DNA of 64,000 nucleotides from positions 16,251-80,250 of the forward strand of contig CAYZXT010000009.1 of assembly GCA_964482515.1 (NCBI GenBank), read 5' to 3'. Positions within the stretch are counted from its first letter, which is position 1. Each line of letters opens with the position of its first letter. Below, in pieces: positions 1,749 through 33,723 of the stretch. The DNA comes from an uncultured Elusimicrobia bacterium (GTDB taxonomy: Bacteria; Elusimicrobiota; Elusimicrobia; FEN-1173). The translations under genes were made by a program, and so were the position numbers. The notes beneath the pieces are model-generated. The model did no database searches. It was not told where the DNA came from and saw only the letters and a program-made list of their open reading frames with translations.

Positions 1749-1784
1749 CTGACATCACATCCGGGTTCTCGCTCCCCGCCCCCG

Positions 1785-7139: not shown

Positions 7140-7163
7140 CGTCTATCCTCCATGAATAAAATC

Positions 7164-12890: not shown

Positions 12891-14150
12891 TTACTTTCCC
12901 GCCGCTTTTTCCAGTTCCGCGACCCGCGCGGAAAGTGCGTCGTGCTCCGCGCTCAGTTCCTTGATCGCGTTCAGCATGCTCCACAAAATCGGATCGCTCC
13001 CGAGGGTCAGGTAGCCGTTGGACGTGGTGCGCACCGCTTCCGGGATCACCTTCTGCACGTCCTGGGCGATGAACCCCACGTTTTCCGCGTCGCTCGGGAT
13101 GCGCAGGGGGTTGTCCGCCTTGTAGCGGTAGCGGACCGGGTTCAGCTGGAGGACTTCCCGCAGGCCGTAGGTGAAGGGCCCGGTGACGTCTTTCAGCCGC
13201 GCGTCGGAAAAGGTCTGCCAGGTCCCGCCGCCCGCCTTGCTGGCGTCGCCGTTGACGCTCAGCGCGAAGTCGGGCGAGACCGTGCCGATGCCGACCCGCC
13301 GGTTGGTGATGACGAAGGTGTCGTCGCCGATGGTCACGTAGGGGTCCGCGCCGTCGATGATGAACCCGCCGGAGCTGATGTGCAGCTTGGCGGCGGGCGT
13401 TGGCGTGCCGATCCCCACCATGCCGCCGGTCACCACGAAGGTGCTGAGCCCGACGCTCATGGCGCTGCCCTGCACCGTGAGGGTGGAAGCGCCCACGAGC
13501 GTCAATTGGGTCGCGTCCACGGGAGGCAGCAGGACGCCCGGCAAAAGCCGGACGAGCTGGTCGGGGCCGTTGAAGGTGTTGCCCTGCATGGTGAAGGTGT
13601 CCGTGTCGATGTCCACGTCCACGCCGTCGGGGTCCGCGCTGACCACGACCTTGAAGCGGTTGGTGAAGTTGATGAAGCTGACGTCCGGGTGGACGTTGCC
13701 GCCGTTCAGCCGGATCCCCAGGGGGTTCAGGAGCCCGGGCAGCGTGGTGACGGAGGAGGGGATGTCGGCGATCTTGTCCCACCGCACCGACAGGGCGCTG
13801 GGGGCCGACGACAACGGGTAGCGCGGTGAGATCACCTGGCCCTCGATGGCCACCTGCAGCCACTTGTCGTCGGAGAAATCGATGGTGCCGAGGGCCTGGT
13901 TGACGGAGCCGAGGAGCACGCTGTAGACGCCGTTCTCGTCCGGCGTCACGGTCTGGGTCTCGGTGAAAAGGGCCGTTCCGCCCGTGGCCGCGCCCCAGAG
14001 GGTGAAGACCACGGACGTGGGCGCCGTGATCGGAATGCCGTCGCCGTCGACCAGCCGGCCCTGGAAGTTGAAGGTCTCCAGCAGCGCGTGGGCGGGCAGC
14101 GCCGCGGCGAAGAGCAGGGAAAAGAAAAGCAGGGATTTGGATAGTCTCAC
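12891..14150 (-). CDS. Tail-fibre-domain protein with an intramolecular chaperone (peptidase S74-like) C-terminus, paralog 2
   Basis: Signal peptide MRLSKSLLFFSLLFAAALPAHA, then an N-terminal FNFQGRLVDGDGIPI...NGVYSVLLG module. The C-terminus reads WQTFSDARLKDVTGPF...NPVRYRYK...VGFIAQDVQKVIPEAV...ILWSMLNAIKELSAE followed by a coiled coil. Confidence 0.8.
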   Translation of the reverse strand: MRLSKSLLFFSLLFAAALPAHALLETFNFQGRLVDGDGIPITAPTSVVFTLWGAATGGTALFTETQTVTPDENGVYSVLLGSVNQALGTIDFSDDKWLQVAIEGQVISPRYPLSSAPSALSVRWDKIADIPSSVTTLPGLLNPLGIRLNGGNVHPDVSFINFTNRFKVVVSADPDGVDVDIDTDTFTMQGNTFNGPDQLVRLLPGVLLPPVDATQLTLVGASTLTVQGSAMSVGLSTFVVTGGMVGIGTPTPAAKLHISSGGFIIDGADPYVTIGDDTFVITNRRVGIGTVSPDFALSVNGDASKAGGGTWQTFSDARLKDVTGPFTYGLREVLQLNPVRYRYKADNPLRIPSDAENVGFIAQDVQKVIPEAVRTTSNGYLTLGSDPILWSMLNAIKELSAEHDALSARVAELEKAAGK

Positions 14151-14164: not shown

Positions 14165-15451
14165 CTAACGATTTCTCAAAAGTTCAAGTTGCGCGATCCG
14201 GGCCTTCAGAGCCTCGTTGCGCGCGCTCATCTCTTTGATCGCGTTCAGCATGCTCCACAAAATGGGGTCGCTCCCGAGGGAGAGATAACCGTTCGGGGCG
14301 TCGCGCACCGCCTCGGGGACCACGTCCCGCACGTCCTGGGCGATGAACCCGATGTTGTCTTTGTCGGACGGCAGGTTCAGGGGGTTCCCCGCCTTGTAGC
14401 GGTAGCGGACGGGGTTCAATCGGAGGACGTCGTCCAGGGAATGGGAAAATGGCCCCGTGACGTCTTTCAGCCGCGCGTCGGAAAAAGTCTGCCAGGTCCC
14501 GCCGCCCGTCTTGCTCGCGTCCCCGTTGACGGCGAGGGTGACGTCCGGCGACGCGGTGCCCATGCCGACGCGCCGGTTGGTGACCACGAAGGTCTGGTCG
14601 TTGATGTTCACGAAGGGATCGGCGCCGTCCAGGATGAACCCGCCGGAGCTGATGTGCAGTTTCGCCAAGGGCGCGGTTCTCCCGACCCCCACCATGCCGC
14701 CGCGCACCGTGAAGTCGTCCCCCGCCACGCTCATGGCGGCGCCCCGCACCGTGAGGGTGGACGCCAGCAGCGTCAGCGACTGCGCGTTCAGGGAAGGCAG
14801 GGCGCCGGCGCCGTTCAGTTGCAGGAGTTGGTTGGACCCGTTGAACGTGTTTCCCTGCAGGGTCGCCGAGGACGAGTTCATCTCAATGTCGATGGTCCAG
14901 TAGGGCGGCCCGAGCGGAGAGGTCTGCGGCGAGAAGATGGTGGAGAAGTTGAGGAACCCAGGGTCCAGGTGGACGGTGGCGCCGTTCAGCTGGACGTAGA
15001 CGTCCCGCTGCAGTCCCGATCCGTAAAGGTGTTGAGGGGGAACGCCCGAGACGGCCTGCCATTCGGCGGAGAGGGCGTTGGGGACCGACGACAGGGACAG
15101 CCGCGGGGCGAGGACCTCTCCCTCCACGTTCACCTCGAGCCAGGTGTCCGATCCGAAGTAGACGCCCGTCAGCGTTTGGTTGAGGGACCCGATGAGGGCG
15201 GTGTAGACCCCGTTGGCGTCGGGGGCGACGGTGTGGGTCTCCGTGTAGACGGCGAACTCCTCCTTTTGCAGCGAAACCTCCGCCGTCGACGACTTCCAGA
15301 GGCTGAAGATCACGGTCCGCGGGGTCGAGACCGGGTCGCCGGCGCTGTCGGTCAGGCGGCCCTGGAAATTGAAATGGGGCGTAAAGGCGGCGGAGGCGGG
15401 GACGGCGAGGGCGAAAAGCGCGAAGAACAACAGCGATTTGGAAATTTTCAA
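14165..15451 (-). CDS. Tail-fibre-domain protein with an S74-like C-terminus, paralog 1
   Basis: It has the same architecture as 12891..14150: FNFQGRLTDSAGDPV...; WQTFSDARLKDVTGPF...IGFIAQDVRDVVPEAV...ILWSMLNAIKEMSAR. The start is placed at TTG 15451 ((M)KISKSLLFFALFALAVPASA) by analogy with the paralog; the track uses TTG 15475. Confidence 0.8.
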   Translation of the reverse strand: MKISKSLLFFALFALAVPASAAFTPHFNFQGRLTDSAGDPVSTPRTVIFSLWKSSTAEVSLQKEEFAVYTETHTVAPDANGVYTALIGSLNQTLTGVYFGSDTWLEVNVEGEVLAPRLSLSSVPNALSAEWQAVSGVPPQHLYGSGLQRDVYVQLNGATVHLDPGFLNFSTIFSPQTSPLGPPYWTIDIEMNSSSATLQGNTFNGSNQLLQLNGAGALPSLNAQSLTLLASTLTVRGAAMSVAGDDFTVRGGMVGVGRTAPLAKLHISSGGFILDGADPFVNINDQTFVVTNRRVGMGTASPDVTLAVNGDASKTGGGTWQTFSDARLKDVTGPFSHSLDDVLRLNPVRYRYKAGNPLNLPSDKDNIGFIAQDVRDVVPEAVRDAPNGYLSLGSDPILWSMLNAIKEMSARNEALKARIAQLELLRNR

Positions 15452-15622
15452 GACGGTATCTCCGGTGTCGCGCAAAGTGTGGTCCCCCGGGAAAGCGCCG
15501 GACGGGCGGTTGCGGGGCGAGCTGTATAAATATGTGCCTAGAAATGAATAAATTCAACGATTTGTTGATTTTGTTTGGGGGAGGGGGGCGGCGGGTTCGT
15601 GAATTCGGGAACGAACGGCGGA

Positions 15623-16789: not shown

Positions 16790-16818
16790 AAATTGTGCAG
16801 CAAGTTGCTGCACAATTT
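16790..16818. promoter_or_regulatory. Perfect 29-nt palindrome upstream of the YhcG-like gene
   Basis: AAATTGTGCAGCAA-G-TTGCTGCACAATTT (14-bp arms, checked base by base) ends 38 nt before ATG 16857. A second, imperfect palindrome TGCCACAGCTTGCGGCA follows. Confidence 0.6.
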
Positions 16819-16856
16819 AAAACTGCCACAGCTTGCGGCAGAATTAGGTGAACATT

Positions 16857-17942
16857 ATGCCGCGTCAGAAAAAATCCCATCCAATAGTGAAACAAGCTGC
16901 TTCATCATTTCCGATGCCCGTTGATTTGTTGTCGGACATTCGAGGGTTTATTGAGACAACCCGTTCCCGGACGGCGCAGGCCGTCAATGCCGCATTGGTC
17001 ATGCTCTATTGGCGCATCGGGCGGCGTATCCAAGACGATGTTCTTAAAAACAAGCGGGCCGGTTATGGGGAAGAGATTGTGCAGACACTGTCGACACAAT
17101 TGGTCCCTGAATTCGGGGAGGGATTTGGCAAGCGGGTTCTTTTTCGGATGATTCGGTTCGCCGAGGCTTTCCCGGACGAACAGATTGTGTCGACGCTGTC
17201 GACACAATTGGGATGGTCTCATTTTGTGGAAATCATTCCCTTGGACGATCCGCTCAAGCGGAATTTCTACGCCGAGATGTGTCGGCTGGAGGGCTGGAGC
17301 GTGCGGAAGTTGCGGGAGAAAATCAGCGGGATGCTTTTTGAGCGGACGGCCCTTTCTAAGAAACCCGCCAAACTCGCTGAGTTGGAGCTGAAGAAGCTTC
17401 GCGAAGAGGACAAGCTCACGCCGGACCTGGTTTTCCGGGACCCTTATTTCCTGGATTTTCTCGGTCTTAAAGGTGTGTATCTGGAAAAGGATTTGGAAGC
17501 CGCGATCTTGCGGGAGATGGAGACGTTCATCCTGGAGTTGGGGGCCGGTTTTTCCTTCGTCTCTCGGCAAAAACGCATCCAGATCGGCGGAGAGGATTTT
17601 TATTTGGACCTTTTGTTCTATCACCGTAAACTGCGCCGCCTCGTCGCCGTGGAATTGAAATTGGGGAAGTTTAAACCCCAGTTCAAAGGCCAGATGGAGC
17701 TTTACCTTCGCTGGCTGGACAAGCACGAACGGCAGTCCGGCGAAGAAGCGCCGCTCGGACTCATCCTTTGCGCGGACAAGTCCGACGAACAGGTGGAGTT
17801 GTTGCAACTTGAAAAGAGCGGCATTCGCGTTGCTCAATATATGACTGCCTTGCCGTCTCGAAAGGTATTGGAAAATAAACTCCACCAAGCCATCCGCCAT
17901 GCGCGGGAACGCTTGGAAACCATAAAAGAATCCGGCGATTAG
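16857..17942 (+). CDS. YhcG/DUF1016 family PD-(D/E)xK nuclease
   Basis: The DUF1016_N region has the duplicated IV(Q/S)TLSTQL and WSHFVEIIPL motifs. The C-terminal nuclease core is GEDFYLDLLFYHRKLRRLVAVELKLGKFKPQFKGQMELYLRWLD. ATG 16857 is preceded by AGGTG; the track starts at GTG 16848. Confidence 0.85.
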   Translation: MPRQKKSHPIVKQAASSFPMPVDLLSDIRGFIETTRSRTAQAVNAALVMLYWRIGRRIQDDVLKNKRAGYGEEIVQTLSTQLVPEFGEGFGKRVLFRMIRFAEAFPDEQIVSTLSTQLGWSHFVEIIPLDDPLKRNFYAEMCRLEGWSVRKLREKISGMLFERTALSKKPAKLAELELKKLREEDKLTPDLVFRDPYFLDFLGLKGVYLEKDLEAAILREMETFILELGAGFSFVSRQKRIQIGGEDFYLDLLFYHRKLRRLVAVELKLGKFKPQFKGQMELYLRWLDKHERQSGEEAPLGLILCADKSDEQVELLQLEKSGIRVAQYMTALPSRKVLENKLHQAIRHARERLETIKESGD

Positions 17943-18011: not shown

Positions 18012-18983
18012 ATGCCACCCCCGTGGAAACCGATATTACTTGTCGGGCTATGCCTGATATCCACCGGCGCGGCGCATCCCTGGTCCCGCGCCGGGCATGA
18101 AGCCTCCGCCCTCATCGCCGAAGGCCGCCTCGACCCCGCCACCCAAGCCAAAATCCGCGCGCTCCTCGGGCCCGGCGTCGGGCTGGACGACATCGCCCTC
18201 TGTTCCGACGCCATCAAGCGCCGCTCCGTGAACTGCGCCGGCGCCTTCTTCGTCAAGCGCGCGCCCCACACCAAGGCCTGGCATTACATCGACATCCCCA
18301 TTTCCGACGAACCCGCCGCCGGCGGCCTGCAGCAGTATTGCCCCAACGACGATTGCGTGACGGACCGCATCGCCGACCAAACCAAGGTCCTCAAAGACCC
18401 CGCCGCCCCGCGGCTGGAGAAGCAGGTCGCGCTCATGCACCTGGTCCATTTCGTGGGCGACCTGCACCAGCCGCTGCACTGCGCCGACGACAGGGACGCC
18501 GGCGGCAACGGCAAGAAGGTCTGGTTCATGGCGGGTCCCCGCGCCCGGAAGCCCGCCACCCTCCACCAGCTCTGGGACAACATGGTGGAGAAGGATTCCG
18601 TGCACGACAGGCTGGACGTCCGCGGCCTGGCCCGGTCCCTGGACGGCGCGATCACGGAGGAGGAAGCCGCGGCCTGGGCCAGGGGCTCCACCCACCAATG
18701 GACGATCGAAAGCCACCGCATCGCCCGGAACACGATCTATCCGCAGTACGCGCGGGACAAGGGGAAGGATTTGGGCAAGGACTACCAGGACGCCATGCGC
18801 CCCATCGCCCATGAACAGGTTCAAAAGGCCGGCGTCCGGCTGGCGGTGCTGCTGGACAAGACCCTGGCCGGCGTCACGGTGGAAGACCTCACCCGCGAAG
18901 CCCCGAAGCGGAAGGCGACGCCCGTTCCCACCGGACAAAAACCGCCCAAAGGCGGCGGCCCCATCCCCCTGCCGGGAAGATAG
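18012..18983 (+). CDS. Exported S1/P1-family nuclease
   Basis: Signal peptide then ...HPWSRAGHEASALIAE, WHYIDIPI, ALMHLVHFVGDLHQPLHC and LHQLWD (zinc ligand motifs of the S1-P1 family), with a Pro/Lys-rich tail. Confidence 0.8.
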   Translation: MPPPWKPILLVGLCLISTGAAHPWSRAGHEASALIAEGRLDPATQAKIRALLGPGVGLDDIALCSDAIKRRSVNCAGAFFVKRAPHTKAWHYIDIPISDEPAAGGLQQYCPNDDCVTDRIADQTKVLKDPAAPRLEKQVALMHLVHFVGDLHQPLHCADDRDAGGNGKKVWFMAGPRARKPATLHQLWDNMVEKDSVHDRLDVRGLARSLDGAITEEEAAAWARGSTHQWTIESHRIARNTIYPQYARDKGKDLGKDYQDAMRPIAHEQVQKAGVRLAVLLDKTLAGVTVEDLTREAPKRKATPVPTGQKPPKGGGPIPLPGR

Positions 18984-19190: not shown

Positions 19191-21977
19191 TTGCCTTTAA
19201 GTTGGAATGAGATTCGTCATCGAGCTATTGGATTTTCACGCGAATGGGCAACGGCTGTGCGTGAAAGATCGGAATCCCAAACTTTTTGGAATGAATTTTT
19301 CCTGGTCTTTGGCTTCCCGCGGAAGAAAGTCGCCCTCTTTGAGGAACCAGTAAAGAAGTTGTCTGGGGAATATGGGTATATCGATCTCATCTGGCCGGGA
19401 ACGTTGTTGGTTGAACATAAGAGTTTCGGTCAAGACTTAAGCAAGGCTGAGTCTCAAGCTTTCCGCTATGCCAGGAGTTTGAACCAAGAGGATTCTCCCC
19501 GCTACATCATCGTTTCGGATTTCGCCCGCATCTCTCTCCACGATTTGGAAGAGGACAAAAGTATTACCTTTCCACTGACTGACTTTCATAAACACATCCA
19601 CGACTTCGCATTTATGTCCGGGTATCAGCAGCATACCTTTCAAGATCAAGATCCTATCAATATCGAAGCCGTCGAAATCATGGGTAAACTCCATGATGTT
19701 CTTGGGGACGGTGGCTACAGCGGCCATAAACTGGAGCGGTTTCTAGTCCGCATTCTTTTTTGCCTCTTCGCAGAGGATACGGGTATTTTCGAACGTGAGG
19801 AATTTCACTTCTTTATACGGAACAGCACCTCCGAGGATGGCTCAGATTTAGGGAACCATCTTGCCCGACTGTTTGACGTCCTAAACACACCAAAAGAAAA
19901 ACGCCAAAAGAACCTCGATGAATCCCTTGCAGATTTACCTTATGTAAATGGGGAACTGTTCGCGGAGAACCTTGGTTTCGCGGACTTCAATAGCGATATG
20001 CGCAATGCGCTTTTGGCCTGCACGCGGTTTGATTGGTCCAAGATATCTCCAGCCATCTTCGGCTCTCTATTCCAAGCGGTAATGGAACCGAAAGAGCGCC
20101 GCCAAATCGGAGCACACTATACCAGCGAGAGGGATATATTGAAAGTTGTTCGGAGTCTATTTCTTGATGATCTCCGCGTAGAATTTGAGGGTATCAAGAG
20201 ATCCACTGGTCAAAGTCGTAAATCTGGATTGAAACGCTTCCATGAAAAAATCTGCGCTTTACGTTTTCTTGATCCGGCCTGTGGTTGCGGTAATTTTCTT
20301 GTTATTACCTACCGTGAACTCCGTGAATTGGAATTGGAAACATTACGGGAGTTGCATCTTACAGGCACCGGTGAGGCAAAAGGATTCCAGCAGGAATTAA
20401 CGCTTGAGGAAGTAAACAGACTATCACTTGTTGATGTGGACCAACTATACGGCATTGAATTGAAGGAATGGCCCGTAAGAATCGCCGAAGTGGCTCTTTG
20501 GTTAATGGATCATCAAATGAACATCAAGGTTTCCGAGACCTTCGGCCAATTGTATCAAAGGCTTCCTCTGAAGAAACGTCCCAACATCGTGCAAGGTAAC
20601 GCTTTACGAATGGATTGGAAAGAAGTCATTCCCCCAGAGAAATGCAGTTACATCCTTGGGAACCCGCCATTTGTGGGGGCCATGTATATGGAGCCAGAGC
20701 AACGGCACGATATGCTGCTTGCAGCGAATAATTTAAATGGTGTTGGTGTTTTGGATTATGTTTCGGCATGGTATTTTGTCGCTTCGGGCTATGTAACGGG
20801 GACAAAAATAAGAGTTGGTTTTGTTTCAACCAACTCGATTACACAAGGCGAGCAGGCGGGAATTTTATGGTCTGAACTGTTTAATCGGGGAGTGAAGATT
20901 CATTTTGCACATCGGCCATTCGCCTGGGATAGTGAGGCCAGAGGAAAGGCTCATGTTCACGTTGTGATAATAGGATTTGGTGTTTTCGACATCCCGGCAA
21001 AAATAATATTTGATTATGATGCTAATCCCGGGAAACCAATCTTGTCGCAGGTTCGTAATATTAATCCTTATTTAGTTGAGGGCATGGACATTTGCATTCG
21101 TAATCGAAGTGAGCCGATTTGTAATGTTCCCAAAATGGCTTGGGGAAGCCAGCCTCGGGATGGGGGAAATTTCCTGATGAGTTCCGAGGGAAAAAAGGAT
21201 CTATTACGTAAGGAACCTGCTGCAATAAAATGGATTAGACCATTCATGGGGGCTGAAGAGTTTTTAAATGGCGTAGAACGATGGTGCCTTTGGTTGGTGG
21301 GTATTCAGCCGCAAGAACTTAACAGCCTTGTTGAAGTCAAAAATAGAGTTGAAGGTGTAAAGCAAATGCGTCTTTCTAGTAAAGCGGAAGCGACCCGAAA
21401 AAAAGCGAGCACACCAACATTATTTGCCCAAATTGCACAGCCAAACTCTGATTATCTTCTGGTCCCATTGGTAAGTTCTGAACGCCGTTCAATTATTCCA
21501 TTTGGCTTCATGTCCAAAGAGGTTATTGCCAGCAATCTTTGTTGCATAGTTTCGGATGCTACGCCATATCATTTCGGAATACTCTCATCGTCTATGCATA
21601 TGGCCTGGGTTCGTCAGATTTGTGGTAGGCTCGAATCTCGTTACAGGTATTCAAAGGATATCGTCTACAACAATTACCCTTGGCCGCAAAATCCGACGGA
21701 CAAACAGAAAGTCGCGGTGGAAGAGGCGGCGCAAAACGTCTTGGACGTCCGAAAGGAATATTCAAAATCCACGTTGGCCGATCTTTACGATCCACTGTCC
21801 ATGCCGCCGAAGCTTGTCAAGGCTCACGCGAACTTAGACCGGGTTGTTGACCTTTGCTATCGCAAGGAATCGTTCACCAGCGAACGCCAGCGCGTGGAAT
21901 ATCTTTTCAATTTATATGAGCGATTGACCGAACCGTTGGTTGCTATGTCTAGTCGGAAAAAGCGAACCAAGACTTAG
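19191..21977 (+). CDS. MmeI-family type IIL restriction-modification enzyme (single-chain endonuclease plus N6-adenine methyltransferase)
   Basis: The N-terminus reads SWNEIRHRAIGFSREW...ESQTFWNEFFLVFG...YGYIDLIWPGTLLVEHKS (D...ExK). The SAM motif is RFLDPACGCGNFLV and the catalytic motif is LGNPPFVG. It is 928 aa with a TTG start preceded by AGGAGG, and is clearly AT-richer than the flanks. Confidence 0.85.
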   Translation: MPLSWNEIRHRAIGFSREWATAVRERSESQTFWNEFFLVFGFPRKKVALFEEPVKKLSGEYGYIDLIWPGTLLVEHKSFGQDLSKAESQAFRYARSLNQEDSPRYIIVSDFARISLHDLEEDKSITFPLTDFHKHIHDFAFMSGYQQHTFQDQDPINIEAVEIMGKLHDVLGDGGYSGHKLERFLVRILFCLFAEDTGIFEREEFHFFIRNSTSEDGSDLGNHLARLFDVLNTPKEKRQKNLDESLADLPYVNGELFAENLGFADFNSDMRNALLACTRFDWSKISPAIFGSLFQAVMEPKERRQIGAHYTSERDILKVVRSLFLDDLRVEFEGIKRSTGQSRKSGLKRFHEKICALRFLDPACGCGNFLVITYRELRELELETLRELHLTGTGEAKGFQQELTLEEVNRLSLVDVDQLYGIELKEWPVRIAEVALWLMDHQMNIKVSETFGQLYQRLPLKKRPNIVQGNALRMDWKEVIPPEKCSYILGNPPFVGAMYMEPEQRHDMLLAANNLNGVGVLDYVSAWYFVASGYVTGTKIRVGFVSTNSITQGEQAGILWSELFNRGVKIHFAHRPFAWDSEARGKAHVHVVIIGFGVFDIPAKIIFDYDANPGKPILSQVRNINPYLVEGMDICIRNRSEPICNVPKMAWGSQPRDGGNFLMSSEGKKDLLRKEPAAIKWIRPFMGAEEFLNGVERWCLWLVGIQPQELNSLVEVKNRVEGVKQMRLSSKAEATRKKASTPTLFAQIAQPNSDYLLVPLVSSERRSIIPFGFMSKEVIASNLCCIVSDATPYHFGILSSSMHMAWVRQICGRLESRYRYSKDIVYNNYPWPQNPTDKQKVAVEEAAQNVLDVRKEYSKSTLADLYDPLSMPPKLVKAHANLDRVVDLCYRKESFTSERQRVEYLFNLYERLTEPLVAMSSRKKRTKT

Positions 21978-22008
21978 ATCAAAAAGGTGTTTTTATGAAA
22001 AAGAAACC

Positions 22009-22035
22009 GGTACCGGAGTTGACAGATTGACAATC
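22009..22035 (+). repeat. Copy 2 of the GT(G/A)CCGGAGTTGACA motif
   Basis: GGTACCGGAGTTGACAGATTGACAATC, 32 nt after the MmeI-like stop. Confidence 0.7.
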
Positions 22036-22076
22036 AGGTTCAGTACTAGATTTGATTTGTTGAAGGAGCCCCCGCA

Positions 22077-22223
22077 ATGAAAACCAAAAAGCCCCTCTGC
22101 CAAGCCATCAACACGAAAGGGAAGAAGTGCATTGTCCCTGCCGTGCCCGGCAGCAAATTCTCACCTTCCTACAGACAGGTGCCACGGCTAGCGCCGACGG
22201 GTTTCCGACATAAGAAGAAATAA
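22077..22223 (+). CDS. 48-aa basic protein with a short Cys motif (possibly degenerate)
   Basis: GAAGGAG lies 9 nt upstream of the ATG. The product is MKTKKPLCQAINTKGKKCIVPAVPGSKFSPSYRQVPRLAPTGFRHKKK. It is too short for the ORF track, and its 3' half is made of island repeat copy C. Confidence 0.4.
   Translation: MKTKKPLCQAINTKGKKCIVPAVPGSKFSPSYRQVPRLAPTGFRHKKK
22131..22201 (-). repeat. Dispersed island repeat, copy C (inverted)
   Basis: The reverse complement reads CCCGTCGGCGCTAGCCGTGGCACCTGTCTGTAGGAAGGTG ... GGCACGGCAGGGACAAT. Confidence 0.7.
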
Positions 22224-22369
22224 CTGTCCTTTTCTCCCGTTATTCCCAGCCCGTTTCCCTAAAACTTCAGATTAAATCCCGCTAAGCTCCAGATTCTTCC
22301 TCTATGATGAGGTGAGATATGGTTCTTGATGGTCGTTCACATATATGTTAACCTTGAGGAGATGGCGGC

Positions 22370-22792
22370 GTGAGCACTCATTCTGAGAAGCGGAATTGCG
22401 TGCTTTATTCCGGCCGGTTCTATTCGGCCGAATGGTATTACAGGGAGGACGGCGGGATGCCGGCTCTCGAATATTATCGGGAACTCCCTATCCATGATCG
22501 AGTGCGGCTATTACAGATCATTAAGCACCTGTGCGACGCTCCCTACGGGACAATCCTTCCCGTGACGCTTTACAGGATCGAAGATCGGGAAAACAAGATT
22601 TACGCGTTTAAGCCGAGGGACGAGCGATTCTTCAGTTTTACGATGGAGGGCGCAAGGGTCATCGTTACGAACGCTTACCGCAAGCATTCACAACAGATGA
22701 CCAAGGCGGATCTGGAGTCCTTGAAAACAGCTGTTCGCTATCGGAACGATTATTTGAGGCGCCTGAAAGAGGGGACATATTATGAAGGCTAA
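22370..22792 (+). CDS. RelE/ParE-superfamily toxin (Gp49/DUF891-like)
   Basis: ...KIYAFKPRDERFFSFTMEGARVIVTNAYRKHSQQMTKADLE. The GTG start is preceded by GAGGAG, and the gene overlaps the downstream HTH gene by 11 nt. Confidence 0.65.
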   Translation: MSTHSEKRNCVLYSGRFYSAEWYYREDGGMPALEYYRELPIHDRVRLLQIIKHLCDAPYGTILPVTLYRIEDRENKIYAFKPRDERFFSFTMEGARVIVTNAYRKHSQQMTKADLESLKTAVRYRNDYLRRLKEGTYYEG

Positions 22793-23132
22793 AAAGAAAA
22801 TCAAAAAGGCAAAGAGCACCTTTGATCGGGAAATGGAAAACCCGGAATTCAGGAATCTTTTCGAGGAATCTTGGCCCGCCTTCCAAGTGGAAGTCCAGCT
22901 GCTGAAAGCCTTGGAAGGCAAGCAATGGTCCTATTCCGACCTCGCGAAGGTATTGCACACGCAGAAGAGCGCCATTTCGCGCGACCTGAAAGGCGGCGGC
23001 ATTCGGTCTGCTTCCATCACGCGGATCGCGAAGATGGCGGAAGCCCTGGGAATGAGATTTATCCCGTTCTGCGTCTCCGAGAAGAAGGCGAGGGAAATTC
23101 TTCCCGCTATCAAGAAACTCCTGGCCGCGTAA
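22782..23132 (+). CDS. HTH (XRE-like) antitoxin
   Basis: WSYSDLAKVLHTQKSAISRDLKGGGIRSASITRIAKMAEALGMRF is a helix-turn-helix pattern. The gene is small and translationally coupled to the toxin gene. Confidence 0.65.
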   Translation: MKAKKKIKKAKSTFDREMENPEFRNLFEESWPAFQVEVQLLKALEGKQWSYSDLAKVLHTQKSAISRDLKGGGIRSASITRIAKMAEALGMRFIPFCVSEKKAREILPAIKKLLAA

Positions 23133-23141
23133 TAGGGATTC

Positions 23142-23167
23142 GTGCCGGAGTTGACACGTTGACAATC
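23142..23167 (+). repeat. Copy 3 of the GT(G/A)CCGGAGTTGACA motif
   Basis: GTGCCGGAGTTGACACGTTGACAATC, 10 nt after the antitoxin stop and 32 nt before ATG 23199. Confidence 0.7.
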
Positions 23168-23198
23168 GACCAGCCTATTCTTTAAGTACAATACCTCC

Positions 23199-24242
23199 AT
23201 GCCGAAAGAATCCATCCCCTCGGTCGCCCATCCCGCCTACGCCAAGCTCCGTTCCGCCGTCCACAAAACCCTCCTCCTCGGTCAGAAACAAATCGAACAA
23301 GCCAAAGTCCGTACCTACTACGAAACCGGAAAACACATCCAAGAACATATCGCCCGCTACGGTTCGCGCTCCGAGCATTACGGCGCTCAAGTGGTGGAGA
23401 AGCTTTCGGTTGATTTGGGGATTAGCACCCGGGTCTTGCGGCAGTGTGTGCAGTTCGCCCGGAACTTCAAGATTGTGAACGCGCGTTCACAATCTTTGCC
23501 GGCCCAATTGCCTTGGACGCATTACCGTCAACTGATGACCATTCCGGATGAGGACGCGCGGATTTCCCTGATGAAAAGGGCCGAGAAGTCCGAATGGAGC
23601 GAACGCCAGCTGGCGGAGAAGATCCGCCTTGAGGTGCGAGAAGCAAAGTCCCCGTCAACCAACGGCGGGCATAGTTCAATGGTAGAAAAGAAGTATCCCA
23701 AGCTCATTCCCAAGCGCGGCGAGCTTTACACGTACCGCCTCATTGCGCCGGAAGCGGTTGATGGCGAAGCGGGTCTGTGGATTGATTTGGGTTTCCAGGT
23801 GCGGCGCACCTTTCCACAAACAGGTGCCATGGCTAGCGCCAAGGGCGGACAGATCGTGGAATCCAAAAAGACGGGGGAAATCTATTCCGCGGTCCCGTCC
23901 AAGCGGACGGAGGCGGACTTGTTCACCTTCCAGGCGCCGGTGGAGCGGGTGGTGGACGGCGACACGCTGATCGTGAACGTCGACCTGGGGTTCGACACGG
24001 GCGTGCGGCAATACCTGCGGTTGCGCGGCATCAATTGCCCGGAGCTGGACACGCCGGAGGGCAAGCGGGCCAAGGCCTTCGTGGAAAAGGAATTGGGGAA
24101 AGCGCGGCGGATCATCCTGACGAGCTCCCGGTCCGACAAGTACGACCGCTACCTGGCGGACGTGTTTATTGAGTCCACCAACGGCGAACGATATCTGAAC
24201 CAGGCGCTGCTGGACGAAGGCCTCGCGGTCCGGATGGAATAG
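23199..24242 (+). CDS. DUF1016_N domain fused to a staphylococcal-nuclease (SNase)-like domain
   Basis: The N-terminal 150 aa parallels the YhcG N-domain (…WTHYRQLMTIPDEDARISLMKRAEKSEWSERQLAEKI). The C-terminus reads VVDGDTLIVNVDLGF...YLRLRGINCPELDTPEGKRAKAFVEKEL...DKYDRYLADVFI...YLNQALLDEGLAV. Confidence 0.75.
   Translation: MPKESIPSVAHPAYAKLRSAVHKTLLLGQKQIEQAKVRTYYETGKHIQEHIARYGSRSEHYGAQVVEKLSVDLGISTRVLRQCVQFARNFKIVNARSQSLPAQLPWTHYRQLMTIPDEDARISLMKRAEKSEWSERQLAEKIRLEVREAKSPSTNGGHSSMVEKKYPKLIPKRGELYTYRLIAPEAVDGEAGLWIDLGFQVRRTFPQTGAMASAKGGQIVESKKTGEIYSAVPSKRTEADLFTFQAPVERVVDGDTLIVNVDLGFDTGVRQYLRLRGINCPELDTPEGKRAKAFVEKELGKARRIILTSSRSDKYDRYLADVFIESTNGERYLNQALLDEGLAVRME
23809..23845 (-). repeat. 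Dispersed island repeat, copy D (inverted, inside a CDS)
   Basis: The reverse complement reads CCCTTGGCGCTAGCCATGGCACCTGTTTGTGGAAAGG. On the + strand it encodes TFPQTGAMASAKG in the linker of the DUF1016_N-SNase protein. Confidence 0.65.
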
Positions 24243-24248
24243 CCCTCC

Positions 24249-24303
24249 CAATCTTCATCCCTCCTTCAGTCGTTCTTCAGACTTAAAAAGTAATCTCTCC
24301 TCC
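24249..24303 (+). promoter_or_regulatory. Conserved ORF6N leader, copy L2
   Basis: CAATCTTCATCCCTCCTTCAGTCGTTCTTCAGACTTAAAAAGTAATCTCTCCTCC, followed by an ATG (24304) that hits a stop after 4 codons. Confidence 0.7.
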
Positions 24304-24334
24304 ATGAATTGTGCATGATGAATGGGAGGACTAG

Positions 24335-24359
24335 AGGTGGTCGCAAATTGCGACCGCCT
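24335..24359. repeat. Near-perfect palindrome in the ORF6N-2 5' region, sharing a 17-nt core with the copy-1 in-gene palindrome
   Basis: AGGTGGTCGCAA-A-TTGCGACCGCCT has one T:G mismatch. The core GGTCGCAAATTGCGACC (24339-24355) is identical to 2035-2051. Confidence 0.8.
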
Positions 24360-24386
24360 TCGACCACTCAAATTCTTGGAGGTTTT

Positions 24387-24914
24387 ATGCGAGCTGTAAT
24401 GAAAACCGAACACATTCAATCGATGATATTCCTGATTCGCGGGCGCAAGGTCATGTTGGACCGTGATTTGGCGGCGCTTTATGGCATTGCCACAAAGGTC
24501 CTTAAGCAGGCTGTTAAGCGGAATCATTTGCGATTCCCGGAGGATTTCATGTTTGAACTGTCTGCGGAAGAGCAGTCAAATTGGAGGTCACAATTTGTGA
24601 CCTCCAATTCTTCCCTGAATAAGGGACTCCGGTGGCGTTCAATGGCATTCACTGAGTATGGTGTGGCCATGCTTTCCGGCGTTCTGAAAAGTGAAAGGGC
24701 CGTTCAGGTTAATATCGCCATCGTTCGGGCATTTATCGACATGCGGCGGATGATTTCGGAAACACGAGGGTTGGCGGAGAAATTGGCGGAGCATGAGAAA
24801 AAGATCGGGGGACTGGCGAACGATGTCCGGCATATGTTCGACCTGCTACAGCCGTTGCTGGATGGACCCACTAAAAAACCCGGGAAGATCGGGTTCGGAA
24901 TGCGACAGATTTAG
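24387..24914 (+). CDS. ORF6N domain protein, copy 2 (apparently intact)
   Basis: MRAVMKTEHIQSMIFLIRGRKVMLDRDLAALYGIATKVLKQAVKRNHLRFPEDFMFELSAEEQSNWRSQFVTSN...[35 protein letters not shown] lies 4 nt before ATG 24387; the frame is open from 24309. Confidence 0.85.
   Translation: MRAVMKTEHIQSMIFLIRGRKVMLDRDLAALYGIATKVLKQAVKRNHLRFPEDFMFELSAEEQSNWRSQFVTSNSSLNKGLRWRSMAFTEYGVAMLSGVLKSERAVQVNIAIVRAFIDMRRMISETRGLAEKLAEHEKKIGGLANDVRHMFDLLQPLLDGPTKKPGKIGFGMRQI
24579..24609. repeat. Perfect 31-nt palindrome inside ORF6N copy 2 (15-bp arms)
   Basis: AATTGGAGGTCACAA-T-TTGTGACCTCCAATT, checked base by base. It encodes NWRSQFVTSN. Confidence 0.9.
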
Positions 24915-26212: not shown

Positions 26213-26287
26213 GGCCTGATTGTAAGAAACAACCGCCGCCGGTTCAAGGGCGGAGATTCACCCGACCCGCTTCCGAGGCCTTCCTCC

Positions 26288-26344
26288 CAATCTTCATCCT
26301 CCCTCCCGCGGTTCTTCAGAATCAAAAAGTAACCTTTCCTGCGG
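26288..26344 (+). promoter_or_regulatory. Conserved ORF6N leader, copy L3
   Basis: CAATCTTCATCCTCCCTCCCGCGGTTCTTCAGAATCAAAAAGTAACCTTTCCTGCGG is fused directly to mid-gene ORF6N sequence. Confidence 0.7.
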
Positions 26345-26551
26345 TTCCCGGAAGATTTCGCATTTCGCCTGAATAAAGAGGAATATGAGTCTTTAAGATT
26401 CCAAACTGGAATCTTAAAGAGAGGACAGCACGCCAAGTATCTGCCATTGGTATTCACTGAGCAAGGCGTTGCCATGCTCTCGAGCGTTCTCCGGAGCAAA
26501 CAGGCGGTTCAAGTGAACATCGCCATCATGCGAGTTCCCCTACTCCCTTGA
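26333..26551 (+). pseudogene. ORF6N relic (copy 3), lacking both the N-terminal and C-terminal parts
   Basis: A frame without a start codon reads ...[64 protein letters not shown], then PLLP*. The IRG.KVMLD.DLA..YGV N-terminal segment is missing. Confidence 0.8.
26390..26420. repeat. Perfect 14-bp-arm palindrome inside the ORF6N relic
   Basis: TCTTTAAGATTCCA-AAC-TGGAATCTTAAAGA, checked base by base. It encodes [11 protein letters not shown]. Confidence 0.9.
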
Positions 26552-26577: not shown

Positions 26578-26925
26578 ATGGAGGCCGGGTTGGAAATCAA
26601 ACCCCTGAAGATTGAATATTATTACGCGAGGGATGGCCGGGTTCCCTATAGGGAATGGTTTTATTCCTTGAAAGATATGAAAACCCGGCAGATTATCATT
26701 GCACGCTTAACGCGGGTGGAGCGGGGATTGTTGGGAGATTCTAAGTCCATTGGTTCGGGCGTTCATGAACTCCGGATTGATAAAGGACCAGGATATCGTA
26801 TTTATTTTGGACGACAGGGCGATCACGTCATCCTGCTTTTATTAGGCGGCACTAAGAGCAGCCAAAGGAAAGACATTGAAAAAGCCCATGATTATTGGGT
26901 GGATTATTTAAGGAGACAAGGATGA
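26578..26925 (+). CDS. Addiction-module killer protein (RelE/HigB-like, COG3657-type)
   Basis: ...DGRVPYREWFYSLKDMKTRQIIIARLTRVERGLLGDSKSIGSGVHELRIDKGPGYRIYFGRQGDHVILLLLGGTKSSQRKDIEKA. Confidence 0.8.
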   Translation: MEAGLEIKPLKIEYYYARDGRVPYREWFYSLKDMKTRQIIIARLTRVERGLLGDSKSIGSGVHELRIDKGPGYRIYFGRQGDHVILLLLGGTKSSQRKDIEKAHDYWVDYLRRQG

Positions 26926-27236
26926 AGAAGCCCACGTACCATGAAGATCTCATTGAAAGCTTGAAGGACCCTAAATACGCCTTGGGGTATCTGAACGCCT
27001 GTTTGGAAGATGAGGACGAAGGGGTGTTCCTCCTGGCATTGAAGCATGTGGCCGAAGCCCATGGCGGGTTGAGCGGACTGGCGAAGAAAACGGGATTGAA
27101 CCGGGAACATCTTTTTCGAATGTTGTCCAAGAACGGGAATCCGCGCCTGGAAAACCTGCGGCAGGTGGCCGGCGCGTTCGGGTGGAAGATCCGCTTCGTG
27201 GAGATGAAATCCCCGAAACTGCGCCGCGCCGCTTAA
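26922..27236 (+). CDS. Addiction-module antidote protein (HigA-family HTH)
   Basis: MKKPTYHEDLIESLKDPKYALGYLNACLEDEDEGVFLLALKHVAEAHGGLSGLAKKTGLNREHLFRMLSKNGNPRLENL. It has an ATGA start/stop overlap with the toxin gene. Confidence 0.8.
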   Translation: MKKPTYHEDLIESLKDPKYALGYLNACLEDEDEGVFLLALKHVAEAHGGLSGLAKKTGLNREHLFRMLSKNGNPRLENLRQVAGAFGWKIRFVEMKSPKLRRAA

Positions 27237-33231: not shown

Positions 33232-33723
33232 CTACCAGCGCTCGGATCCACCTCCGTCGTTGCCGCCGCGTCGTCCGCCGTCCCGCCGCCCGCCGCGTCC
33301 GCCTCCGCGTCCACCGCGACCGCCTCCGCGTTCGCCGCCGCCGAACCCGCCGAAGCCACCGCCGCCCTGGCCGCCGCGATCGCCGAAGTCGCCGCCTTGT
33401 CCGCCGCGCCCTCCGCCGAAACCGCCGCCACCACCGCGTCCGCCGCCGAACCCGCCCCCGCCGCCGAAGCTGCGCTTCTCCATGGGACGGGCCTCATTGA
33501 CCACCAGGGTCCGCGATCCCATGGGGCTGCCGTGCATTTTTTGGATGGCCGTCGCCGCGTTTTCGTCCGACGTGATTTCCACGAACCCGAAGCCCTTGGA
33601 GCGCCCGGTCTCACGGTCCATGATCAGCTGTACTTTTCCCAACGGGCCAAATGGTTTAAACATCTCGAGCAGCTGGTCTTCGGTCACGTCGTAGGGCAGG
33701 CTGCCGACAAATAATTTTTTCAT
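33232..33723 (-). CDS. RRM-type RNA-binding protein with a Gly/Arg-rich tail
   Basis: RNP2 KLFVGSLPY, RNP1 KGFGFVEI, then GGGGFGGGRGG repeats. Confidence 0.9.
   Translation of the reverse strand: MKKLFVGSLPYDVTEDQLLEMFKPFGPLGKVQLIMDRETGRSKGFGFVEITSDENAATAIQKMHGSPMGSRTLVVNEARPMEKRSFGGGGGFGGGRGGGGGFGGGRGGQGGDFGDRGGQGGGGFGGFGGGERGGGRGGRGGGRGGRRDGGRRGGNDGGGSERW

What the first reader, a model, noticed from the sequence alone, without database searches (positions are those of the whole stretch)
23199..24242. Domain swap: YhcG-type N-terminal domain fused to an SNase-like nuclease instead of PD-(D/E)xK
The first roughly 150 aa parallel the DUF1016_N region of the YhcG-like protein 6 kb upstream. 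The C-terminus, however, is a staphylococcal-nuclease fold (VVDGDTL...LRLRGINCPE...DKYDRYLADV) rather than the restriction-endonuclease-like core. The roughly 80-aa linker contains island repeat copy D. Two proteins in one island share a targeting or regulatory head but carry different nuclease warheads, and a repeat sits at the junction. This suggests modular effector exchange.
Basis: partly seen in the sequence, partly recalled or inferred. Interest (0 to 1): 0.5.

Follow-up and report, generated by a model that had tools for sequence, protein, structure and literature searches.

The report
Nuclease gene carrying its own DNA-binding site
The gene is an ordinary member of a large, old family that joins a YhcG-type head to a staphylococcal-type nuclease, but that head looks like a DNA-reading module whose palindromic target lies inside its own gene, which gives the long-uncharacterised YhcG/DUF1016 family a testable function.

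Summary

The "island repeat" is four ATTGTG…CACAAT palindromes. Copy D (23469-23496) lies inside the DUF1016_N coding region (K91-S99), not at a junction.

Such a palindrome sits at the same codon position in about 75% of 83 fusion genes, in classic YhcG genes, and in E. coli K-12 yhcG, far above synonymous-codon shuffles. The head resembles ParB/KorB DNA-binding domains. Residues on one face of its helix-turn-helix recognition helix (78, 81, 82) covary with the palindrome's variable bases with sensible chemistry (Arg↔G). The same positions covary in the classic family.

Best reading: a self-contained nuclease cassette whose DNA-binding head recognises an operator inside its own gene, probably for autoregulation. 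DNA binding and its purpose are inferred, not shown.

The parts
23199..24242 (+). ORF of 347 aa: DUF1016_N head, short linker, β-module, SNase-like nuclease
   Evidence: ORF. Pfam. Full-length homologues. Structure model with pLDDT 88.
23232..23639 (+). DUF1016_N helical domain (aa 12-147; Pfam match aa 29-145). Fold resembles ParB/Spo0J/KorB/SopB DNA-binding domains.
23379..23465 (+). Predicted helix-turn-helix: helix aa 61-73, turn G74-I-S76, recognition helix aa 77-89 (T77 R78 V L R81 Q82 C V Q85 ...)
   Evidence: Secondary structure. Residues 78, 81 and 82 covary with palindrome bases at z 9-17 against a background maximum of 5.1. Nearest-relative pair test. The homologous positions covary in classic YhcG.
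23469..23496 (.). It encodes K91-S99 in a low-confidence loop and starts 4 nt after the recognition-helix codons. Proposed cognate operator of the head.
   Evidence: Present at the same position in 62/83 family genes at score >=10, against 0.4% of synonymous shuffles. Half-site logo.
23649..23684 (+). True flexible linker (aa 151-162, pLDDT below 50)
23691..23930 (+). Conserved β-rich middle module (aa ~165-244) with no Pfam match. It is contiguous with the SNase domain.
   Evidence: Invariant columns. Strands. No Pfam hit. PHROG 452 endonuclease profile covers aa 218-346.
23931..24239 (+). SNase-like nuclease domain (aa 245-347). D255, R274, E282 and R317 correspond to SNase D21, R35, E43 and R87. 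N279 is at the D40 position. It lacks the last SNase helix.
23807..23845 (+). 39-nt sequence shared with 22162-22200 (85% identity). Encodes the variable loop aa 203-216. Unexplained.
23138..23167 (+). Conserved intergenic element with two TTGACA hexamers, directly upstream of the ORF. Copies at 22006-22035 and 1720-1745.
   Evidence: The consensus promoter scan did not call it.
16848..17942 (+). Classic YhcG paralogue (DUF1016_N + PD-(D/E)xK). The start is probably the ATG at 16914. Its recognition-helix codons (17130-17171) are flanked by palindromes B and C.
   Evidence: P0255, 342 aa.
16791..16817 (.). Palindrome A: AATTGTGCAGCAA-G-TTGCTGCACAATT, upstream of the YhcG start
   Evidence: Upstream copies are rare in relatives: 5 of 76 upstream regions carry any palindrome, two of those are run-over artefacts, and only L086 has a site like A.
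17076..17100 (.). Palindrome B (9 of 11 arm pairs) inside YhcG. Encodes IVQTLSTQL, the first HTH helix.
   Evidence: Site B is significant in 36/80 classic genes.
17184..17208 (.). Palindrome C (11+3+11, perfect) inside YhcG. Encodes IVSTLSTQL. Its position is homologous to palindrome D.
   Evidence: Site C is significant in 56/80 classic genes.

Best explanation
The ORF encodes a cytoplasmic, stand-alone nuclease of a large and old family, found mainly in Omnitrophota, Elusimicrobiota and relatives.

Architecture: a DUF1016_N head, a ~12-residue linker, a conserved β-module, and a catalytically intact but C-terminally shortened SNase-like nuclease.

The head is a ParB/KorB-like helix-turn-helix DNA-binding domain. 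Its recognition helix (aa 77-89) reads a two-fold symmetric site of ~22-28 bp: outer AATT boxes, variable specificity bases, GC-rich core. That site is embedded in the gene itself, starting 4 nt after the codons for the recognition helix. Reader and site are therefore inherited, diverge and move as one unit, and paralogues in one genome carry different sites. The classic YhcG (PD-(D/E)xK) family uses the same arrangement, with two sites flanking the recognition-helix codons and three tandem sites in E. coli K-12.

Most likely purpose (inferred): the protein, probably as a dimer, binds its own gene as an internal operator or roadblock. This would keep a potentially toxic nuclease autoregulated wherever the cassette lands in a defence island. 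What triggers the nuclease, and on which substrate, is unknown.

What is shown and what is inferred:
- Shown computationally: domain identities, family size and age, palindrome conservation beyond codon constraints, residue-base covariation.
- Inferred: physical DNA binding, dimerisation, autoregulation, defence role.
For: Domains and fold:
- Pfam.
- Model with pLDDT 88.
- Catalytic residues D255, R274, E282 and R317 are invariant in 30 homologues.

Family size and age:
- 462 clusters at E<=1e-30; at least 469 loci, several copies per genome.
- One clade of 72 SNase-type heads.

Palindrome:
- In about 70 of 85 genes the best palindrome of the whole gene falls at query residue ~95-103.
- Mean score is 11.05 against 4.85 in synonymous shuffles. 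62/83 genes score >=10 against 0.39% of shuffles.
- The centre is in the same codon phase in 65/65 genes, with conserved AATT and CCGC|GCGG boxes.
- Symmetry runs to the centre and mismatches show no G:U bias.
- Classic YhcG has two sites, significant in 36/80 and 56/80 genes against 0.2-0.5% of shuffles.
- E. coli K-12 yhcG has three tandem palindromes.

Covariation:
- Residues 78, 81 and 82 reach z 9.3, 17.1 and 11.6, against a maximum of 5.06 for 176 background columns. Flanking variable columns stay at z<=3.
- Arg82↔G(-5) 36/47, Arg78↔G(-6) 12/12, Lys/Asn81↔G, Glu↔C, Tyr/His/Trp81↔T.
- Nearest-relative pair test: p=3e-4, 2e-5 and 3e-3.
- The homologous positions 74, 77, 78 and 81 covary in classic YhcG at z 10-17 against a background maximum of 5.0.
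- The code is the same there: Arg74↔G(-6) 19/23 at site C and 15/18 at site B; Arg78↔G(-5) 35/43.
- Sites B and C within one gene are more alike than between genes, p<0.0002.

Stand-alone cassette in defence islands:
- No conserved neighbour gene.
- Neighbours in homologue loci include RM, AbiE, GmrSD, Hachiman and ORF6N genes.
- The window has an MmeI-type RM, two toxin-antitoxin pairs, and PADLOC candidates PDC-S02 and PDC-S05.
Against: - No experiment shows DNA binding, and no protein-DNA model was built.
- The covariation statistics do not fully correct for shared ancestry. The background columns and the sister-pair test only partly do, and one control column (res 89) reached p=0.007 in the pair test.
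- The classic-family sample is narrow, at least 59% identical to the window's YhcG.
- About 20-25% of family genes have a weak palindrome or none.
- An operator about 270 nt inside an ORF is an unusual place for autoregulation, and no second site exists near the promoter.
- N279 replaces the Ca2+-ligand Asp (SNase D40) in this protein, so its activity or metal requirement may differ.
- The one PDC-S02 (classic YhcG) representative tested against T4, T5 and T7 was not among the protective candidates (10.1101/2024.09.26.614923), so a defence role is unproven.
- In E. coli, yhcG deletion interacts genetically with replication genes (PMC2672614). That points to chromosome biology rather than defence.
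Confidence: 0.68

Rival explanations
1. A recent domain swap within this island exchanged a PD-(D/E)xK warhead for an SNase warhead on a shared head, mediated by an island repeat at the junction.
For: Both architectures occur 6 kb apart. ATTGTG…CACAAT palindromes occur in both genes.
Against: - The heads are only 29% identical.
- The fusion family is huge and diverse and its heads form one clade.
- The palindrome lies mid-head at codons 91-99, not at the junction.
- The palindrome is present in essentially all family members irrespective of island.
- The 'linker' is a conserved domain.
Confidence: 0.03
2. The intragenic palindrome is a non-functional, self-maintaining quasi-palindrome. A protein motif (I..TLS..QL or I.AAR.QL) makes the DNA partly symmetric. 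Template-switch repair then keeps the arms perfect in a loop that tolerates any peptide.
For: - The encoded loop is poorly ordered and variable.
- The conserved AATT and core boxes coincide with semi-conserved residues.
- From general knowledge, quasi-palindrome correction is a known mutational bias.
- There is no extra copy elsewhere in the flanks.
Against: - It does not predict covariation of the palindrome's variable bases with residues 78, 81 and 82 on one helix face, with Arg↔G-type chemistry, while adjacent variable columns show none.
- It does not predict the same code appearing in a second family.
- It does not predict sites B and C of one gene matching each other.
Confidence: 0.08
3. 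The palindrome acts as an mRNA hairpin, for example a ribosome pause, an RNase III site or an attenuator, that controls expression of the nuclease. It is not a DNA site for the head.
For: A GC-rich stem of 11-14 bp would be very stable in RNA. It lies early in the ORF of a potentially toxic protein.
Against: - Symmetry extends through the centre: zero loop in most genes, which an RNA loop does not require.
- Mismatches show no G:U tolerance bias: 25 G/T, 16 A/C and 29 other in the fusion family; 20, 29 and 87 in the classic family.
- There is no T-run terminator and no Rfam match.
- It does not explain the residue-base covariation.
Confidence: 0.07
4. The head does read the palindrome, but the site is a cleavage target rather than an operator. 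On this view DUF1016_N proteins are very-long-site, homing- or restriction-like endonucleases built as a reader plus a non-specific cleavage domain, as in FokI or I-TevI. The chromosomal copy would be spared, for example because cleavage needs two sites, and incoming DNA carrying the same site would be cut.
For: - A sequence reader is tethered by a flexible linker to a non-specific nuclease.
- The same head is used with two unrelated nuclease folds.
- The sites are long (22-28 bp) and each paralogue has its own specificity.
- The genes are mobile and live in defence islands.
Against: The only known copy of each site is in the gene itself, so there is no identified foreign target, and self-cleavage would be suicidal. 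No methylase or immunity partner is conserved. No activity data exist.
Confidence: 0.14

Closest known systems
YhcG / DUF1016 family (Pfam PF17761 + PF06250; PADLOC candidate PDC-S02)
   Same: Homologous N-terminal DUF1016_N head. An intragenic palindrome sits at the homologous codon position, and the homologous recognition-helix positions covary with it. Both are stand-alone genes in defence and mobile contexts with no conserved partner (PMC1189080).
   Different: The C-terminal nuclease is an SNase OB-fold preceded by a β-module, not PD-(D/E)xK. The gene has one zero-loop palindrome with a CCGC|GCGG core, instead of two or three palindromes with a 3-nt centre and a GAC…GTC core.
Staphylococcal nuclease / thermonuclease family (PF00565; Nuc, YncB, phage TNase-like endonucleases, PHROG 452)
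   Different: - No signal peptide is evident from the sequence, so it is likely cytoplasmic.
- It lacks the C-terminal helix: the Pfam match covers profile positions 2-75 of 107.
- Asn replaces the D40 Ca2+ ligand in this protein.
- It is fused to a DNA-binding head.
- It scores far below the NCBIfam NucI and EcnA equivalog cut-offs.
ParB/Spo0J-parS, KorB-OB and SopB-sopC DNA-binding domains
   Same: The helical HTH domain has a similar fold. The inferred site is a two-fold symmetric palindrome.
   Different: No ParB N-terminal CTPase/Srx-like domain was detected. The domain is fused to a nuclease. There is one site per gene, immediately next to the recognition-helix codons, and nothing suggests partition or spreading.
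I-TevI (GIY-YIG homing endonuclease that also represses its own promoter) and FokI-type modular nucleases
   Same: Architecture of a sequence-reading domain, a flexible linker and a largely non-specific nuclease. For I-TevI, the same DNA-binding domain binds an operator at its own gene without cutting (from my own knowledge; not tested here).
   Different: The folds are unrelated and the domain order is reversed. The site here is inside the ORF and palindromic. There is no intron or homing context.
Rickettsia palindromic elements (protein-coding palindromes; Ogata et al., cited in PMC4316617)
   Same: Palindromic DNA is carried in frame inside protein-coding genes, in surface loops.
   Different: Those are multi-copy mobile repeats inserted into unrelated genes. 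Here a single site sits at a fixed position in one gene family and covaries with that protein's recognition helix.

Membership tests
DUF1016_N (PF17761) | Profile match above Pfam's gathering score | tested here: met
   73.8 bits against a cut-off of 32.8, aa 29-145, covering profile positions 14-133 of 137.
YhcG / DUF1016 nuclease family sensu stricto (PF06250; PADLOC PDC-S02) | C-terminal YhcG_C PD-(D/E)xK nuclease domain | tested here: not met
   No PF06250 match. PDC-S02 models match only the head, aa ~10-155. The C-terminus is SNase.
SNase / thermonuclease (PF00565) | Profile match above the gathering score, and the SNase OB-fold | tested here: met
SNase / thermonuclease (PF00565) | Catalytic and Ca2+-binding residues D21, R35, D40, T41, E43, R87 | tested here: inconclusive
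   D255, R274, E282 and R317 are present and invariant in the family. The D40 position is Asn279 here (Asp in most relatives), and the T41 position is Cys280. Activity was not tested.
SNase / thermonuclease (PF00565) | Complete domain including the C-terminal helices | tested here: not met
   The match covers profile positions 2-75 of 107. The protein and its homologues end right after the helix at 333-339.
NCBIfam equivalogs: thermonuclease NucI, calcium-activated nuclease EcnA | Score above the curated equivalog cut-off | tested here: not met
   36.7 bits against 250, and 35.8 bits against 180.
ParB/KorB-type HTH DNA-binding domain | Fold similarity of the DNA-binding domain | tested here: met
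ParB/KorB-type HTH DNA-binding domain | Sequence-profile membership (PF17762 HTH_ParB) | tested here: not met
   E=0.06, 13.9 bits against a cut-off of 22.6. Only two homologues carry a precomputed PF17762 hit.
ParB family proper | N-terminal ParB/Srx-like CTPase domain | tested here: not met
   No such Pfam match in the protein.
ParB/KorB-type HTH DNA-binding domain | Specific binding to a palindromic DNA site | not testable with these tools
   Supported indirectly by residue-base covariation. A binding assay is needed.
Tudor-SN (SND1-like) | Tudor domain inserted in or next to an SN domain | tested here: not met
Validated anti-phage defence system | Experimental protection against phage | not tested
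   Only context evidence is available. One classic PDC-S02 representative was not among the protective candidates in 10.1101/2024.09.26.614923.

The most novel reading that the evidence does not exclude
DUF1016_N proteins, both the classic YhcG type and this SNase fusion, may be self-specifying sequence-directed nucleases. The in-gene site would then be more than an autoregulatory operator. It would act as a 'self' address: it would park or license the nuclease on its own locus and let it discriminate or attack other DNA carrying the same address, for example a second copy of the element, a replicated sister copy, or an incoming relative. That would also give the E. coli y-gene yhcG a mechanism linked to replication and chromosome handling.
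Probability: 0.2. Interest if true: 0.85.

Novelty: new variant of a known kind. Interest (0 to 1): 0.6.

Why it matters
The domain fusion itself is ordinary. It is already catalogued, and sources name it 'DUF1016 N-terminal domain-containing protein' or 'thermonuclease family protein'.

It is a family-wide palindrome embedded in the coding sequence of the DUF1016_N head, and it covaries with the head's predicted recognition helix.

- The head of YhcG has had no assigned fold or function since it was first analysed in 2005 (PMC1189080).
- YhcG is an uncharacterised E. coli K-12 protein.
- The family is one of the most abundant candidate defence genes (PADLOC PDC-S02).

The result supplies three things: a concrete DNA ligand for each family member, a residue-to-base recognition code (helix positions 2, 5 and 6 reading bases -6, -7/-8 and -5), and a simple experiment in E. 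coli.

It is also a clean natural example of a DNA-binding protein and its site evolving as one physically linked unit. That is useful for studying how specificity evolves and for building orthogonal reader-site pairs.

Tried and rejected
1. The 21978-22369 segment as a decayed second copy of the gene. Only two short collinear pieces match, a 26-mer and the 39-mer, with nothing between them. Rejected as a simple pseudogene. The 39-mer remains unexplained.
2. The 39-mer as an insertion in the protein. Rejected, because the loop has normal length compared with homologues.
3. Rfam scan of 21500-24800 at E<=1 gave no match.
4. The consensus promoter and terminator scan did not call the TTGACA element or any terminator after the gene.
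5. A search for a conserved partner gene (immunity protein, methylase) in 82 loci found none. ORF6N was the most frequent neighbour, at 8 of 82 loci.
6. A search for extra copies of each gene's palindrome arm within ±10 kb found 2 of 65, consistent with chance. Upstream palindromes are rare in the classic family: 5 of 76 upstream regions were listed, two of those are run-over artefacts, and only L086 has a site like palindrome A.
7. The RNA-hairpin test by G:U mismatch bias showed no bias.
8. Looked for classic YhcG genes in the flanks of the fusion loci. None were found, so they were fetched separately.
9. The NJ tree including E. coli YhcG gave no clean split. Without that long branch the SNase-type heads are one clade. 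The classic sample is too narrow to date the fusion.
10. The afdb50 fold library was unavailable. The viral fold library matched only the SNase module. The PDB sequence search found nothing for the head or the β-module.
11. Literature searches for palindromes in yhcG or DUF1016, PF17761 and PDC-S02 found no prior description of the feature.
Full report
**1. Checking the observation**

The ORF is real: 23199..24242 on the + strand, 347 aa. Pfam finds DUF1016_N at aa 29-145 (E=1.9e-20, 73.8 bits, cut-off 32.8) and SNase at aa 273-344 (E=1.8e-9, 38.5 bits, cut-off 21). The ORF at 16848..17942 is a classic YhcG carrying DUF1016_N and the YhcG_C PD-(D/E)xK domain. Its start is probably the ATG at 16914, as in the database entry P0255. 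The two heads align over aa 32-142 with 29% identity, E=2e-11.

The nuclease call holds up well.
- An AlphaFold model built from 30 homologues has mean pLDDT 88.
- Foldseek aligns about 110 columns to staphylococcal nuclease at about 2 Å and 28% identity.
- A profile alignment to SNase maps D21, R35, E43 and R87 onto D255, R274, E282 and R317, all invariant in the family.
- The Ca2+ ligand D40 is Asn279 in this protein. It is Asp in most relatives.
- The domain ends before the last SNase helix, in this protein and in its homologues.

The "roughly 80-aa linker with repeat copy D" is not confirmed. Only residues 151-162 are disordered. Residues ~165-245 form a β-rich module with several invariant positions. 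This module has no Pfam match.

The first is a 39-nt match between 23807-23845 and 22162-22200. It is 85% identical, has two copies only, and 0.01 matches are expected by chance. It encodes aa 203-216, a variable surface loop of normal length, so nothing has been inserted. The other copy lies in a 48-aa ORF between the MmeI-type gene and a toxin gene. Apart from a 26-nt element upstream of both, nothing else in that segment resembles the gene. I could not explain this repeat.

The second is a set of four ATTGTG-N(10-13)-CACAAT palindromes at 16792-16816, 17076-17100, 17184-17208 and 23472-23493, against 0.02 expected. These fit "island repeat copies A-D". The fourth extends to a perfect 14+14 palindrome at 23469-23496. 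It encodes K91-S99, which is inside the DUF1016_N domain, not in the linker and not at a domain junction.

**2. The fusion is common and old**

- A word-indexed search returned more than 120 full-length relatives at 40-61% identity, nearly all with the same two Pfam domains. Sources name them "DUF1016 N-terminal domain-containing protein", "thermonuclease family protein" or "endonuclease YncB".
- An exhaustive HMMER search of 1.84 billion cluster representatives found 462 at E<=1e-30. The best 150 essentially all align end to end.
- A scan of one genome per GTDB species found at least 469 loci, mostly in Omnitrophota, with some in Elusimicrobiota, Latescibacterota, Opitutaceae and deltaproteobacterial MAGs. 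Several copies per genome are common.
- Head-domain identity averages 38% within the fusion family and 28% to classic heads.
- All 72 fusion-type heads form one clade once a single long-branch E. coli sequence is removed. The classic sample is narrow, so this test is limited.

**3. Genomic context**

The window region is a defence-island-like patch:
- S1/P1 nuclease (18012-18983).
- Classic YhcG, PADLOC candidate PDC-S02.
- A low-GC MmeI-type IIG restriction-modification gene (19191-21977).
- A Gp49/HigB-like toxin with an HTH antitoxin (22370-23132).
- The fusion gene itself.
- An ORF6N gene, PDC-S05 (24309-24914).
- A 3'-5' exonuclease gene.
- A second toxin-antitoxin pair (26578-27236).

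Homologues of the fusion gene sit next to RM, AbiE, GmrSD, Hachiman and ORF6N genes. Clustering all neighbours within 4 kb in 82 loci shows no conserved partner. The commonest neighbour is ORF6N, in 8 loci and adjacent in 6. The gene is a stand-alone cassette.

**4. What the "repeat" really is**

Scanning 85 family genes for their best palindrome gave an unexpected result. In about 70 of them the strongest palindrome in the whole gene is a perfect or near-perfect 22-38-nt palindrome, usually with zero loop. It is centred at the same protein position (query residue ~95-103), and its arms differ from gene to gene.

This is not a by-product of the protein sequence or of codon usage.
- In the region of residues 85-110 the mean palindrome score is 11.05, against 4.85 for synonymous-codon shuffles.
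- 62 of 83 genes score >=10, against 0.39% of shuffles.
- 69 of 83 genes beat all 50 of their own shuffles.

The site has a fixed architecture. The centre is in the same codon phase in 65 of 65 genes. The AATT boxes at ±9-12 are conserved, positions ±5-8 are variable, and the core is CCGC|GCGG. The arm sequence is almost never found again within ±10 kb (2 of 65). Paralogues in one genome carry different arms (L014, L041, L044). The encoded peptide is the low-confidence loop 94-98.

Classic YhcG genes show the same thing. In 80 metagenomic relatives, palindromes of the form AATTGTnnnGAC-NNN-GTCnnnACAATT occur at exactly two positions, residue ~55 and residue ~95, and almost nowhere else in the gene. 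36/80 and 56/80 score >=9, against 0.2-0.5% of shuffles. The window's copies B and C are these two sites. Copy C is at the position homologous to copy D. E. coli K-12 yhcG has three tandem palindromes in the same region:
- AATTCACCAGAC·AAT·GTCTGGCGAATT
- GGGAATTCCGCAGAC·ACC·GTCTGCAGAATTCCC
- GGCAAAGATTTGGCAGAC·GCT·GTCTGCCAAATCTTTCCC

The window's "island repeat" is therefore two instances of a superfamily-wide feature. The shared ATTGTG ends follow from the family-conserved ATTGT and from an Arg that both proteins carry (see section 5).

**5. What reads the palindrome**

I tested whether the protein covaries with the palindrome's variable bases, using 72 genes. Apart from residues encoded by the palindrome itself, only residues 78, 81 and 82 stand out, at z=9.3, 17.1 and 11.6. 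By comparison, 176 equally variable columns elsewhere have mean z 2.05, a 95th percentile of 4.05 and a maximum of 5.06. The variable neighbours 77, 79, 83 and 87-89 have z<=3.

The spacing i, i+3, i+4 marks one face of a helix, and the pairings make chemical sense:
- Arg82 with G at -5 (36/47).
- Arg78 with G at -6 (12/12).
- Lys or Asn at 81 with G at -7.
- Glu with C.
- Tyr, His or Trp at 81 with T.

Among 54 nearest-relative pairs, the base changes when the residue changes: p=3e-4 for res82, 2e-5 for res81 and 3e-3 for res78.

The result replicates in the classic family. The top non-encoded columns are R74, F77, R78 and R81, with z of 10-17 against a background maximum of 5.0. By the alignment these are the homologues of residues 78, 81, 82 and 85. 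The code is also the same relative to the ATT box:
- Arg74 with G at -6: 19/23 at site C and 15/18 at site B.
- Lys74 with C at -6: 31/32.
- Arg78 with G at -5: 35/43.
- Asn78 with C at -5 and A at -4: 10/10.

Sites B and C of one gene resemble each other more than sites from different genes do: 1.51 against 2.89 differences, p<0.0002.

In the window both proteins obey the code. R78 and R74 pair with G at -6, and Q82 pairs with A at -5.

**6. RNA or DNA**

The symmetry runs through the centre, which an RNA loop would not require. Arm mismatches show no G:U-type bias. There is no terminator-like T-run and no Rfam match. Together with the covariation, this favours a two-fold symmetric double-stranded DNA site bound by a dimer.

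**7. Mechanism**

Shown computationally: the architecture, intact catalytic residues, a family-wide intragenic palindrome under DNA-level constraint, and residue-base covariation at a predicted recognition helix, in two families.

Inferred:
- The head binds the site.
- It binds as a dimer. The 43-residue helix 12-54 is a candidate dimerisation element.
- Binding inside the ORF autoregulates a potentially toxic nuclease. An internal operator would work whatever promoter the mobile cassette lands behind, and tight linkage keeps reader and site together.

A serious alternative for the purpose of binding is site-directed cleavage, in a FokI- or I-TevI-like design. I rate it lower because the only known copy of each site is in the gene itself.

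What activates the nuclease is unknown. A defence role rests on context only. One classic PDC-S02 representative was not among the protective candidates in a published test (10.1101/2024.09.26.614923). E. coli yhcG shows synthetic lethality with parE, dnaN and dnaB hypomorphs (PMC2672614).

**8. Comparison with what is known, and novelty**

- The protein is a member of DUF1016_N and of the SNase superfamily.
- It is not a YhcG/PDC-S02 member in the strict sense, because it has no PD-(D/E)xK domain.
- It is not a ParB, because it has no CTPase domain and no profile membership.
- It is not a Tudor-SN.

The fusion itself is already catalogued. I found no description of the intragenic palindromes or of a function for the head. 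The 2005 analysis of YhcG found the N-terminal domain to have no recognisable fold (PMC1189080). I therefore rate this as a new variant of a known kind.

**9. Verdict**

Followed through, it gives a specific and testable function for the DUF1016_N head across a very large family that includes E. coli yhcG. Interest 0.6.

**Limitations.** There is no binding experiment. The covariation is only partly corrected for phylogeny. The classic-family sample is narrow. About a fifth to a quarter of the genes have weak sites. The purpose of binding is inferred.

Noticed in passing
window 23807-23845 and 22162-22200: A discrete 39-nt direct repeat, 85% identical, with only two copies in the window. One copy encodes a variable loop of the fusion protein. 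The other lies in a different frame inside a 48-aa ORF (22077-22223) that a public gene caller also called. Similarity stops exactly at the 39-mer ends. Its origin is unexplained.
   Followed up: partly
window 1720-1745, 22006-22035, 23138-23167: A conserved intergenic element of 26-30 nt containing TTGACA hexamers (ACCGGTGCCGGAGTTGACA...). It sits directly after the MmeI-type gene, directly before the fusion gene, and before an ORF6N paralogue. It may be a shared promoter or regulatory box, but the consensus promoter scan did not call it.
   Followed up: partly
window 1780-1837, 24244-24301, 26283-26340 (plus 24640-24727 / 26445-26532 and 2280-2344 / 24832-24896): A 58-nt leader is conserved upstream of ORF6N (PADLOC PDC-S05) genes. 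There are two intact ORF6N paralogues (1839-2375 and 24309-24914) and what looks like a third, truncated copy around 26340-26540.
   Followed up: no
L085 (E. coli K-12 NC_000913.3) 13130-13243, inside yhcG: Three tandem palindromes of 27-39 nt with a shared CAGAC-NNN-GTCTG core and AATT/GATT outer boxes. They encode a triplicated IxQTxSxx motif. I found no mention of them in the searchable literature.
   Followed up: partly
window 19191-21977: A complete MmeI-type IIG restriction-modification gene with all five MmeI Pfam domains, in a segment of 45-47% GC within a window of about 60-65% GC. This suggests recent horizontal acquisition.
   Followed up: no
window 22370-23132 and 26578-27236: Two toxin-antitoxin-like pairs flank the fusion and ORF6N genes. 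One is a weak Gp49/HigB-like toxin with an HTH_37/HTH_3 antitoxin. The other is a PHROG 3445 toxin with a PHROG 4268 repressor.
   Followed up: no
window 16791-16817: A perfect 13+1+13 palindrome upstream of the YhcG start. It resembles the in-gene sites B and C and could be an extra operator. Only the closest relative, L086, has a similar upstream site.
   Followed up: partly
window 12891-14150 and 14165-15475: Two tandem paralogous genes on the - strand with signal-peptide-like N-termini. Their C-terminal parts are closely similar, and the DNA is 78% identical over 300 nt.
   Followed up: no
loci L014, L041, L044 (one Omnitrophota MAG); L019, L054, L058 (another MAG): Single genomes carry three paralogues of the fusion gene. 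In the first MAG each has a different palindrome arm sequence, as expected for orthogonal reader-site pairs.
   Followed up: partly
window 7150-7264 and 33257-33482: Long GC-rich runs with 9-12-nt periodicity (CCGCCG-type repeats) that probably encode low-complexity Gly/Ala/Pro-rich protein segments.
   Followed up: no
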